NCBI GenBank assembly: GCA_964016885.1
Contig: OZ024747.1
Coordinates: 1,178,001-1,242,000 of the forward strand
Direction of reading: 5' to 3'
DNA: 64,000 nucleotides
Source: Eledone cirrhosa
Lineage: Eukaryota
Under the pieces are notes generated by a model, which did no database searches, was not told where the DNA came from, and was given only the letters and a program-made list of their open reading frames with translations. The number at the start of each line of letters is the position of its first letter. Position 1 is the first letter of the stretch. This document shows, in pieces, positions 17,154 to 41,931 of this stretch. The position numbers and the translations under genes are program-made.

Positions 17154-17344
17154 TATAAATAGTCCGAGCCCAACAGCTGAGCTCTTGCCATTTCAACAGC
17201 TAGTTGGAACTAGCTGTTGAAATGGCAAGAGCTCAGCTGTTGGGCCCAGACTATTTATACTCTAGCCATACTCTACTACCCCGAGTGTTGAGTACTCTGT
17301 TGAGTAATGGTCTAACTAGTTTCAAACTGAATCCTTCCTGGTTT
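17154..17344 (+). mobile_element. Hairpin-plus-tail element copy 1 (52-bp arms, 2-nt centre, ~85-nt tail)
   Basis: 17154-17205 is the reverse complement of 17208-17259 with 2 mismatches. The tail is homologous to 56438-56514. Confidence 0.8.
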
Positions 17345-37547: not shown

Positions 37548-39783
37548 GGTCGGTAAAAGGTACACGAAAATTGCTGTTATAAAAGAATAATGCAAATGTA
37601 AATATCTAAGGAGAATAAAATTTTACGATAAAGGTGTTAGTGAAAAATATCAAACTTATTTAAAATATAAGGAATTTACATCTATAAAAAGAAAATAAAT
37701 TAATTAAATTGATAGGTATATTTATATTGATAAAATTATATTAATGCATATAGATATGATAAATAAGAGTTATATGTAATTGAAGAGTGCTGTTAAAAAC
37801 GAAGGGAAAATAAAAAAATAATAATAATAAATATTGGGGGGGGGGTAAATTTATTAGTGAGAAATAACCAATATATATAGATTACAAGGAATATAGAATC
37901 ATAACCTGAAATTAAAATAGTTTATATGTATTCTTAATGGTATAAATTTTAGGAAAAGATAGCTGTAAAAGGGAAATAAAATTATGTAGTTCATTAGTAG
38001 TAGAATATTAATTATAGGTTAACTAATTTAAAAAAAGTGTTATTATAATAATTTCTAAAGTGTATATTAATTAGGTTTATAATATTTAAATGTTTTTCTC
38101 AGTTTATGATTACACGATATAATTAATTCCTGTCGCTTATTTAATAGGATATCCTTAGATTTCATTATTTCAAAAAGTTCCTGGGAACATAATCTACATT
38201 CATATCTATTATTTTGATAAGGGGTGGCCCTTTTGAGCACACTCCAGGTCAGGTCATAATCTATATTCCTCTTTCTATAATTATTAATTATTTCAGCTAA
38301 AGATGTTGTATTAGCTAATGCGGCATTTTTAAAACTGTGTTTGTGGGTATTAAATCTTACTTTAAATTGGTTAGAAGTAGCTCCTATATATGAATAAATT
38401 GAGTCCTTAGTGTTAACTTTACATTTATATACTGTTATTAATAAGGCAATTTCCTTTTAATGGGCAATTTGCTTTGTTTCTACAGTTACAACCTTTCGTG
38501 AATGCTGTATCAGAGGAGATAGTCAAATTAGGTGTGGAATTTTCACGATTTGTTGTATGTGAATGAGATGGTGGTTTGCTGTGGTTTATTTTAGTATTAT
38601 GGTTAGTTTGATGTATTGGTGGTATATTCATGGCTTTTTTTACATTTATATGCATTATAGGCACTTATATTTTGTTTTATGTTTTTGGTTGTTGAGTAGG
38701 AGAATTTAATCGTTGATCTATTTAAAATTTGATGGTATTTGTGGTTTGGCGGGAAGTTTTTCTCTAGGATAGTAAAAAAATTTTTAGGTATATTATCCTT
38801 AATTTGTAAATTAAATGGAGCATTATACCAAGTAACTCGTCTATTACGGTTTCGATGTTGTTTATTATTTTTATAGGATGTATCCTGATGTTTATTAAGA
38901 GAATTATTGTTAATGATTTTATTACACATATTTTTAGTTAGATTCATTGATTTAGGTGTTTTAGCTTGTTTATTAGGAATTTTATTATTAACATATATTG
39001 GAGTAGTAGGATGAATAGTTTTTTGAAAGTTACTATATTGTATATTAGAAGAGTTAGAGAAATTAAATTTTATGTTGGTATTTTGGGGTATAGTGTGAGT
39101 GGCATTTAGGTGTGTATGTTTCATTTGGTGTTTGTTGGTAATATTAGGTTGTATGTTTGTAGTGTTATTGGTACAAGGTATGTATACTAATTTATTTTTG
39201 TGGCCACTTCTAGCTAAAGCTTCATTATAGAAGGTTGCATTTTTATCAAATACATCCTGGTTAGACGAAAGGTTAGAAATTCTGAGTGAGATATTATATG
39301 CTAGGTTTTTAAGGATAGATTTAGGGTGATTAGATTGTGAGTGTATGTAATGTAAGTTTTGGTTAGGTTTATGGTAAGGTTGGTAGATACCCATAGATAA
39401 GTCTAATGTTATATCAAGGAAATTAACTACTTTACTTGTGTTTTCAAATGTAATATCTAGACTATAATAGTCTTTGAAGAAAGTTCTAATAAGTTTTTTA
39501 TTTTTTTCAATCTCTGATAGGCTAAGGTTATTGGAAAGAAGAAGACAGTCGTCACGATATAAACCACCTTTAAGGTGGGGAAAGGAAGCATTTATGTTAA
39601 ATAGAAGAAAGAGGCCTACAAGATCGGTAATTTGGGCAGAATCACTTGAGCCCATAGTAATGTCGAATAGATTACTATATGTGTTTCTGGTCCAGTACTC
39701 TTTTTGAAATTCCAGTAGTGTTAGTCTAGCATGTGTAATAATATTAATGTCATCCATAGTTAAGTTAGATCTATTTTTTGCAA

Positions 39784-39917
39784 TATTTCTGAAGACAGCA
39801 TATATATGTATAGGTATGTATATTCCCTCTGATAGTTTGTAAAAATTTTACATAGATCTATATGATATACATACCAATACTAACATATATATCCTAGAAA
39901 CGATCGTAAAATGATGA
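39784..39917 (+). ncRNA. Type I hammerhead ribozyme (inverted copy 2)
   Basis: CTGAAGA at 39789, GAAA at 39897-39900, CGATCG and GTA; predicted cut after 39908. Stem II includes GGTATGTATAT/ATATACATACC. Confidence 0.72.
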
Positions 39918-41541: not shown

Positions 41542-41931
41542 ATGTGTCTGATGGTAGCTAAGATGCTTCCATAGGCGGTGTGCCGATTGAGCACTCTATG
41601 CTCTTACAGAGCAGAGTATGATAGAATAGAAAACGAAAAATCAGTGATGCATCTGAAGTCTATTGTGTGTTACAATTGTTTCCCCGGCGGACAGCTCGAG
41701 ACGCGATCATTGTATGGATCTGTCTGATTCAAGACCCGCAGGTTCGACGGACACGTCTAATGATTTCGGAGCATATTCTCTGAAATCATTAGACGTGTCC
41801 GTCGAACCTGTGGGTCCAGAATCAGACAGATCCACACAATGTCGCGTCTCGAGCTGTCCGCCGGGGAAACAATTGTAACACGCAATAAATTGAGTTCAGA
41901 TGCATCACTGATTTTTCGTTTTCTATTCTAT
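41542..41931 (-). mobile_element. Hairpin-plus-tail element copy 3 (~150-bp arms at 41621-41931, tail 41542-41620)
   Basis: Long near-perfect inverted repeat with a ~6-nt loop. Reverse-complemented tail CATACTCTGCT...GAGCATAGAGTGCTC resembles the tails of copies 1 and 2. Flanked by (TA)n. Confidence 0.75.

What the first reader, a model, noticed from the sequence alone, without database searches (positions are those of the whole stretch)
17154..17344. Candidate undescribed mobile element family: perfect long hairpin + conserved tail, with both arms co-varying (copies at 17154 and 56320)
Seen: both copies are [52-57-bp near-perfect palindrome][tail ACTCTACTACCCnnAGTrTTGAGTACTyTGkTGmGTwATGGTC...TTCCT][TA]. 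The arm cores CAACAGCTGAGCTCTTGCCATTTCAACAGCTAGTT and CGACGGCTGAGCTCAAGCCGTTTCGACGGCTAATT differ at about 8 positions, yet every difference is mirrored in the opposite arm, and the outer arms are unrelated but still paired. The element is asymmetric: not a classic TIR MITE, with no tRNA head and no LINE tail. Inference: the arms are regenerated from each other during mobilisation (fold-back, rolling-hairpin or HUH-type replication) or selected as dsRNA. The tail may be the recognition or nicking site of an unknown transposase. I cannot exclude that a repeat library already lists it.
Basis: partly seen in the sequence, partly recalled or inferred. Interest (0 to 1): 0.75.

Follow-up and report, generated by a model that had tools for sequence, protein, structure and literature searches.

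The report
Hydra-type Penelope retrotransposon hairpin stubs
The two hairpin-plus-tail pieces are short head-to-head stubs of the end repeat of two related Penelope-like jumping-gene families, a known layout, and they likely form when both cut DNA strands are copied off the element's RNA as far as its predicted start.

Summary
In detail: 52-bp and 57-bp arms with 2 and 1 mismatches, and a shared tail. It is not a new class of element.

Copy 2's arm and tail are 100% identical to the end repeat (pseudo-LTR) of 3.6-3.8-kb elements encoding reverse transcriptase plus GIY-YIG endonuclease with Hydra-clade Penelope motifs. Copy 1 belongs to an older sister family. Each arm is the 3' half of a predicted hammerhead ribozyme, and the tail is the optional Penelope tail.

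Many copies lack the hairpin. Arms differ between the two copies because the families differ. After insertion they decay independently (49 old hairpins: 23% arm-to-arm difference, none identical), so they are not maintained as dsRNA.

Both arms stop at a conserved TCAGT inside the ribozyme loop, 30 nt after a TATA-like box in the young family. They are likely two cDNAs, primed from both target strands, run to the RNA's 5' end and joined. This step is inferred; no RNA data were available.

The scan already reported such stubs in this genome and the run-off reading in other genomes. Verdict: new families of a known kind, modest interest.

The parts
17154..17205 (-). Copy 1 (family A, old): inverted arm without tail; ends in the TA run at the inner 3' end site
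17208..17259 (+). Copy 1 direct arm = 3' half of the predicted hammerhead: stem II 3' strand 17209-17217, GAA 17219-17221, stem III 17222-17240, predicted cut after 17241, stem I 3' strand from 17242
   Evidence: sequence read against whole motifs in long copies; cleavage untested
17260..17344 (+). Copy 1 optional tail, with the conserved stem-loop motif at 17270-17295, followed by TA
   Evidence: 10 of 81 letters differ from a typical family copy
56320..56376 (-). Copy 2 (family B, young): inverted arm without tail, ending at the inner site in a TA run
56381..56437 (+). Copy 2 direct arm = 3' half of the predicted hammerhead: GAA 56395-56397, stem III 56398-56416, predicted cut after 56417, stem I 3' strand 56418-56422
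56438..56514 (+). Copy 2 optional tail (stem-loop motif 56443-56468); in full-length copies it runs on towards the ORF start
   Evidence: (L166)

Best explanation
Both pieces are short insertions of the pseudo-LTR of two related Hydra-clade Penelope-like retrotransposon families, joined head to head in TA microsatellites, and they likely arise when the element's enzyme cuts both target strands and copies its RNA from each cut end up to the RNA's predicted 5' end. Shown: family identity, two fixed 3' ends (with and without the tail), a sharp pile-up of 5' ends at a conserved TCAGT in hammerhead loop 2, and symmetric patched junctions. Inferred: (1) TCAGT, with a TATA-like box at -30 in family B, is the transcription start, so the mRNA begins inside the ribozyme and only the downstream repeat holds a whole one. 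(2) Reverse transcription starts at two internal sites about 60 and 135-140 nt from that start, one on each cut strand, as shown in vitro for an anole Penelope element. (3) Each cDNA runs off the RNA end. If it jumps to the RNA's 3' repeat, a long copy results; if not, the two run-off cDNAs are joined by microhomology, giving the hairpin with a one-sided tail. The arms match because they are written from the same family template at insertion; afterwards they decay as neutral DNA. Identity: about 0.97. Twin run-off mechanism: about 0.65.
For: Identity: window copy 2 arm+tail is 100% identical to 40 of 40 scored places. One such place (L163) is the 3' repeat of a repeat-ORF-repeat element; 8 of 10 long loci show that layout and 5 of 10 carry an inverted 5' copy. 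The ORF has RWR, SDKT, FDIESYY, YRDD, CNCx5C, YIG, CxxC before E, and LLNKK..CKH, matching by eye the Hydra rows of Craig et al.. Atlas look-alikes score 0.96-0.98, some clusters carrying RVT_1 (40-78% of members) or GIY-YIG (21-47%). Family A: endonuclease remnants lie 1.3-2.0 kb upstream in 2 of 10 long loci, and ORF residues 31-537 are collinear with the A 3' region in L174. Two 3' ends: of 30 loci chosen on upstream sequence only, 20 end at the inner site, 9 carry the full tail, 1 other. 45 of 54 A hairpins have the tail on one arm only; 24 of 26 B inverted arms end at the inner site. 5' wall: solo copies starting right after TA number 680 at TCAGT, 376 about 10 nt downstream and 14 about 35 nt upstream (reverse-strand counts). 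None of 108 A arms extends past -1. TATTTAAA starts at -30. Symmetry: tailed arm further in 13, untailed in 12, within one base in 19 of 44 A hairpins; 9, 7, 10 of 26 B hairpins. Junctions hold patchwork templated inserts (L068, L078, L079). Four head-to-head pairs with a TA spacer occur among 68 listed places, two perhaps one duplication. Both insertions of 2 nt or more in 40 long copies lie at +4 and +8. Independent decay.
Against: The transcription start is not measured. The TATA-like box is clear only in family B; A has a weak AT stretch there. The three count patterns do not cover the same subfamilies equally, and no control was run between -5 and -35. Palindromic centres make arm ends ambiguous by 1-4 nt. 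The A hairpin pattern allowed at most 12 letters between the arms, so long centres were unseen. Two of 34 B loci are long copies and one hairpin (L261) runs 12-19 letters upstream, past +1. A non-templated G at -1 (possible cap copy) appears in only 9 of 52 listed places (counted by eye). Minimum-energy folds do not give the hammerhead. Pfam and PDB searches gave no significant match for the ORF. Copy 1's arms are only 2 of 52 apart and share a haplotype found nowhere else, which independent decay alone does not explain.
Confidence: 0.68

Rival explanations
1. Same Penelope identity, but the hairpin forms by self-priming: one nascent strand (or an antisense template) folds back at a short palindrome and copies itself, as Arkhipova et al. 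2013 proposed for palindromes at inverted junctions.
For: Perfect palindromic centres are common in family B (several with 5/5 extension). The published interpretation was read in passages of PMC3846280.
Against: Simple fold-back from the tailed strand predicts that the tailed arm always reaches further 5'; the untailed arm does so in 12 of 44 A and 7 of 26 B hairpins. There are TA-spaced head-to-head pairs, and hairpins whose arms differ at subfamily-type positions (L230, L028). The anole enzyme cuts and extends both strands (PMC11167929).
Confidence: 0.17
2. Twin priming is right, but the 5' wall is a reverse-transcriptase stall or processing site caused by the folded hammerhead stem II / loop 2, not the transcription start.
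For: The wall lies inside a structured motif, and young B has a 5-bp hairpin ending at TCAGT. 5' truncation is general in Penelope elements.
Against: The wall is at the same motif in older B subfamilies and in A, whose loop sequences differ while TCAGT is kept. The spacing to TATTTAAA is -30. The wall lies about 40 nt upstream of the predicted ribozyme cut, so self-cleavage does not explain it.
Confidence: 0.12
3. An independent non-autonomous hairpin element (HUH / rolling-hairpin / MITE-like) that replicates as DNA, or whose arms are kept paired by selection for dsRNA.
For: Uniform size, and 40 of 40 identical young copies. Copy 1's arms share a private haplotype.
Against: The same sequence is the end repeat of RT-encoding elements. 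Hairpins made from an identical arm have many different centres, so each was made afresh rather than copied as a unit. Old arms differ by 23%, 0 of 49 identical. Only 4 of 143 rare non-CpG changes are shared by both arms, against a shuffled mean of 1.6 and maximum of 8.
Confidence: 0.02

Closest known systems
[quoted passage not shown] 2021, PMC8557442), incl. Hydra-1_Obim
   Same: Single RT + C-terminal GIY-YIG ORF with DKT, CxCX5C, CxxC and CxH motifs; hammerhead in the end repeat; (TA)n target; 5'-truncated and inverted copies; optional tail. The tail stem-loop motif is also visible at the 3' end of the Hydra consensus listed just before Hydra-1_Obim, whose hammerhead matches the Hydra-2_Amil row (seen in supplement passages).
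   Different: Not Hydra-1_Obim itself: its listed hammerhead and protein differ and the tail word is absent from the supplement. The unit is 3.6-3.8 kb rather than under 3 kb. RWR stands for RWK. The tail is about 77-85 nt rather than 30-40. The hammerhead has a long loop 2 and a 5-6-bp stem III, and family B has a U3-A8 core.
Poseidon element PAc of Anolis (Frangieh et al. 2024, PMC11167929)
   Same: Two internal reverse-transcription start sites that bound the optional tail; both target strands cut and extended; AT-rich target.
   Different: Different clade. In the two of four parts read, the paper does not describe run-off cDNAs or hairpin stubs, and it says priming is not homology-directed, whereas here both 3' ends abut TA in a TA target.
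Adineta vaga Penelope elements (Arkhipova et al. 2013, PMC3846280)
   Same: Adjacent inverted pLTR, palindrome at the inverted junction, optional tail, TATA + initiator motif in the pLTR.
   Different: Those authors read the palindromes as self-priming on an antisense template; the symmetry seen here favours two separate cDNAs.
Minus-strand strong-stop DNA and R-region transfer of LTR retroelements (recalled, no call)
   Same: Priming near the RNA 5' end, run-off, then a jump to a repeated 3' region.
   Different: Analogy only: here the primer is cut target DNA on both strands, there is no tRNA primer or integrase, and the run-off product is integrated.

Membership tests
EN+ Penelope-like elements | Single ORF with RT and GIY-YIG endonuclease linked to the repeat | tested here: met
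   Pfam and PDB gave no significant hit
EN+ Penelope-like elements | Partial tandem forming pseudo-LTRs; inverted 5'-truncated copy at the 5' end | tested here: met
   8 of 10 and 5 of 10 long loci
EN+ Penelope-like elements | Optional tail on one end only | tested here: met
   longer than the published 30-40 bp
EN+ Penelope-like elements | Hammerhead motif in the pseudo-LTR | tested here: met
   A: CTGATGA core; B: TTGA(C/T)AA core. 79% of cells paired against 26-56% when slid, on 9 hand-picked copies. Minimum-energy folds differ.
EN+ Penelope-like elements | Ribozyme self-cleavage | not testable with these tools
   needs a bench assay
Hydra clade | DKT motif, CxCX5C linker, CxxC and CxH around the conserved E and N | tested here: met
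   family B ORF against the definition and the alignment
Hydra clade | N-terminal RWK motif | tested here: inconclusive
   RWR in family B, a conservative variant
Hydra clade | (TA)n insertion preference | tested here: met
Hydra clade | Generally short (<3 kb) | tested here: not met
   unit 3.6-3.8 kb because of a long repeat-rich 3' region; the paper gives this as a tendency, not a defining rule
Hydra clade | Placement in the clade on an RT tree; absence of the CCHH motif | not tested
   reference proteins were only read in the supplement, not aligned by a tool
MITE / Helentron / HUH hairpin elements | Inverted repeats at both termini or a fixed hairpin copied as a unit; DDE or HUH partner | tested here: not met
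   variable centres, solo copies and an RT partner; Dfam and Repbase were not available

The most novel reading that the evidence does not exclude
These stubs are integrated twin 'strong-stop' cDNAs. They map a Penelope transcription start inside the hammerhead's own loop, so the mRNA's 5' copy of the ribozyme is incomplete by design, and the roughly 45 nt between start and cut site act like a retroviral R region for a template jump that builds pseudo-LTRs. Young families run on a hammerhead whose C3-G8 core pair has switched to U3-A8 through a C3-A8 intermediate.
Probability: 0.55. Interest if true: 0.55.

Novelty: new member of a known kind. Interest (0 to 1): 0.3.

Why it matters
As an element it is ordinary: two more families of a published clade, in a published layout. 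Its value is as a record of mechanism. How Penelope elements build pseudo-LTRs and inverted ends is still open (PMC8557442 and PMC11167929 say so), and a young family with at least 40 identical stubs and hundreds of solo copies gives precise start, stop and junction positions. These make one testable prediction: capped RNA ends at the TCAGT in the ribozyme loop. It also warns annotators that such hairpins mimic microRNA precursors (Rfam hits below threshold) and MITEs.

Tried and rejected
Rfam on copy 1: only sub-threshold microRNA-like matches and no hammerhead, as expected for half a motif. Pfam: 0 families; PDB: nothing below E 0.6. RNA evidence: no RNA holder listed, so no reads were laid; this says nothing about expression. 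Empty insertion sites could not be sought (one assembly); no long target duplication is visible, the flanks being microsatellite. Minimum-energy folding did not recover the hammerhead. The first pair count used a mis-registered structure and is discarded; one search is the corrected one. The tail alignment included one wrongly placed row (L110) and was not used. General arm-to-arm homogenisation was tested and rejected (5 of 54 hairpins dropped for deleted arms, and L212 dropped as a duplicate of L210). Cap-derived G at -1 in hairpin centres (9 of 11) was rejected as evidence because the opposite arm can supply that G. Nematis or Naiad membership was considered and rejected: the endonuclease is C-terminal and the motifs match the Hydra rows. 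Literature: seven searches showed no paper describing these families or a Penelope strong-stop product; the library is incomplete, and Repbase, Dfam and the repeat library of PMC13282606 could not be seen (its one supplement lacks the motifs).

Full report
Observation. The copies align at 69% over 164 nt. The genome is 3.0 Gb in 1796 contigs; earlier scan notes and recalled repeat types suggest an octopus.

Two families, hairpin optional. The copy-1 arm and tail gave 3404 candidates, 40 scored, the best other copy at 90%: family A, old. The copy-2 arm and tail gave 1254 candidates and all 40 scored were 100% identical: family B, very young. An inverted arm is present in 26 of 30 B loci. Among 30 A loci, 11 have a full arm, 5 a partial or displaced one, and 14 none. 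Each set includes the window's own copy. Centres vary from copy to copy, so the hairpin is made afresh at each insertion.

Long copies identify the element. Walking upstream from B reached 3.6-3.8-kb units: end repeat, ORF, long 3' region, end repeat. [quoted passage not shown] In L163 the 3' repeat is 100% identical to window copy 2. [quoted passage not shown] These match the Hydra clade as defined in section 11 of Craig et al. 2021 (PMC8557442; read: passages, sections 10-11, supplement parts 2 and 58 and search hits). Pfam and PDB gave nothing significant. The Atlas gave look-alikes at 0.96-0.98, some with RVT_1 or GIY-YIG in part of their members. Family A has frameshifted remnants of a related ORF (about 41-65% identity over the main stretches) collinear with its 3' region in L133, L134 and L174. 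Hydra-1_Obim is a different family.

What the arm and tail are. Longer copies show that the arm is the 3' half of a type I hammerhead motif. A has a CTGATGA core; B has TTGA(C/T)AA, a U3-A8 version of the C3-G8 pair; one older copy has C3-A8. U3-A8 is a known natural variant, also in Penelope elements (passages of PMC3088659 and PMC4209133). On 9 hand-picked copies the topology pairs 79% of cells against 26-56% when slid, but minimum-energy folds differ and cleavage is untested. The tail is the sequence that leads towards the ORF start in full-length copies. Copies end either before it or after it: 20, 9 and 1 other among 30 loci chosen on upstream sequence. In 45 of 54 A hairpins only one arm has it. 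Frangieh et al. 2024 (PMC11167929, parts 1-2 of 4 read) showed in vitro that such a tail lies between two internal reverse-transcription starts and that both target strands are cut and extended.

Why the arms agree. In 49 old hairpins chosen on their centre only (from the first 100 listed rows of 262 matches), arms differ by 23% on average against 27% between hairpins, and none is identical. Rare non-CpG changes are not shared beyond chance (4 of 143; shuffled mean 1.6, maximum 8). Commoner variants are shared in excess (41 against 17), as expected when both arms come from one subfamily template. So the mirrored differences between copies 1 and 2 are mostly family differences. Copy 1 is an outlier: its tail is 10 of 81 from a typical copy, yet its arms are 2 of 52 apart and share a haplotype with no other exact match in the genome. 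A one-off arm-to-arm conversion or a lost private source would explain it; this is unresolved.

Mechanism. 5' ends pile up at a TCAGT inside hammerhead loop 2 that is kept in A and all B variants. Solo copies starting straight after TA number 680 there, 376 ten bases downstream and 14 thirty-five bases upstream (reverse-strand counts; subfamily coverage of the patterns is unequal). None of 108 A arms passes -1. In B, TATTTAAA begins at -30. I infer that this is the transcription start and that the stubs are cDNAs that ran off it. The two arms behave symmetrically at the join (13/12/19 in A, 9/7/10 in B), some joins hold templated patchwork or a TA spacer, and both larger insertions in 40 long copies sit at +4 and +8. 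This favours two cDNAs, one per cut strand, over the self-priming proposed by Arkhipova et al. 2013 (passages of PMC3846280). No RNA run was listed, so the start site is untested.

Novelty. The clade, the inverted end, the tail and the TA target are in print. I found no paper on these two families or on a Penelope run-off product. A 2026 octopus repeat annotation lists 190 Penelope-like families, 31 recently active, in a library I could not see (passages and supplement of PMC13282606). The scan had already reported such stubs in this genome and the run-off reading in other genomes; I reached both readings before those look-ups, and they are not independent support. Verdict: new families of a known kind; interest 0.3.

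Noticed in passing
window 41545-41930: A third fold-back of an unrelated family: arms of about 165 nt, tail on one arm only, and the same tail stem-loop motif as A and B; no hammerhead core was seen in it.
   Followed up: partly
window 38073-39823, minus strand: 5'-truncated, frameshifted Hydra-type RT + GIY-YIG ORF of another family, 42-46% identical to the family B protein.
   Followed up: partly
window 17154-17259: Copy 1's arms share a haplotype with no other exact match in the genome although the copy looks old; candidate one-off arm-to-arm conversion. L220 looks similar.
   Followed up: partly
window 826 to about 14000: Long 27-bp tandem array, about 490 in-register matches at roughly 95% identity.
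   Followed up: no
L169:492-590 and L123:8408-8505, minus strand: Older B-type hammerheads with a mismatched 3-8 core pair, a possible intermediate between A (C3-G8) and young B (U3-A8).
   Followed up: partly
L070:1270-1500: A solo B stub whose 5' side carries an inverted copy of about 200 nt of host DNA that also lies some 600 nt further away in the locus.
   Followed up: no
L121-L132: Several other Penelope-like ORFs of different families lie within 10 kb of B copies, in the same TA-rich patches.
   Followed up: no
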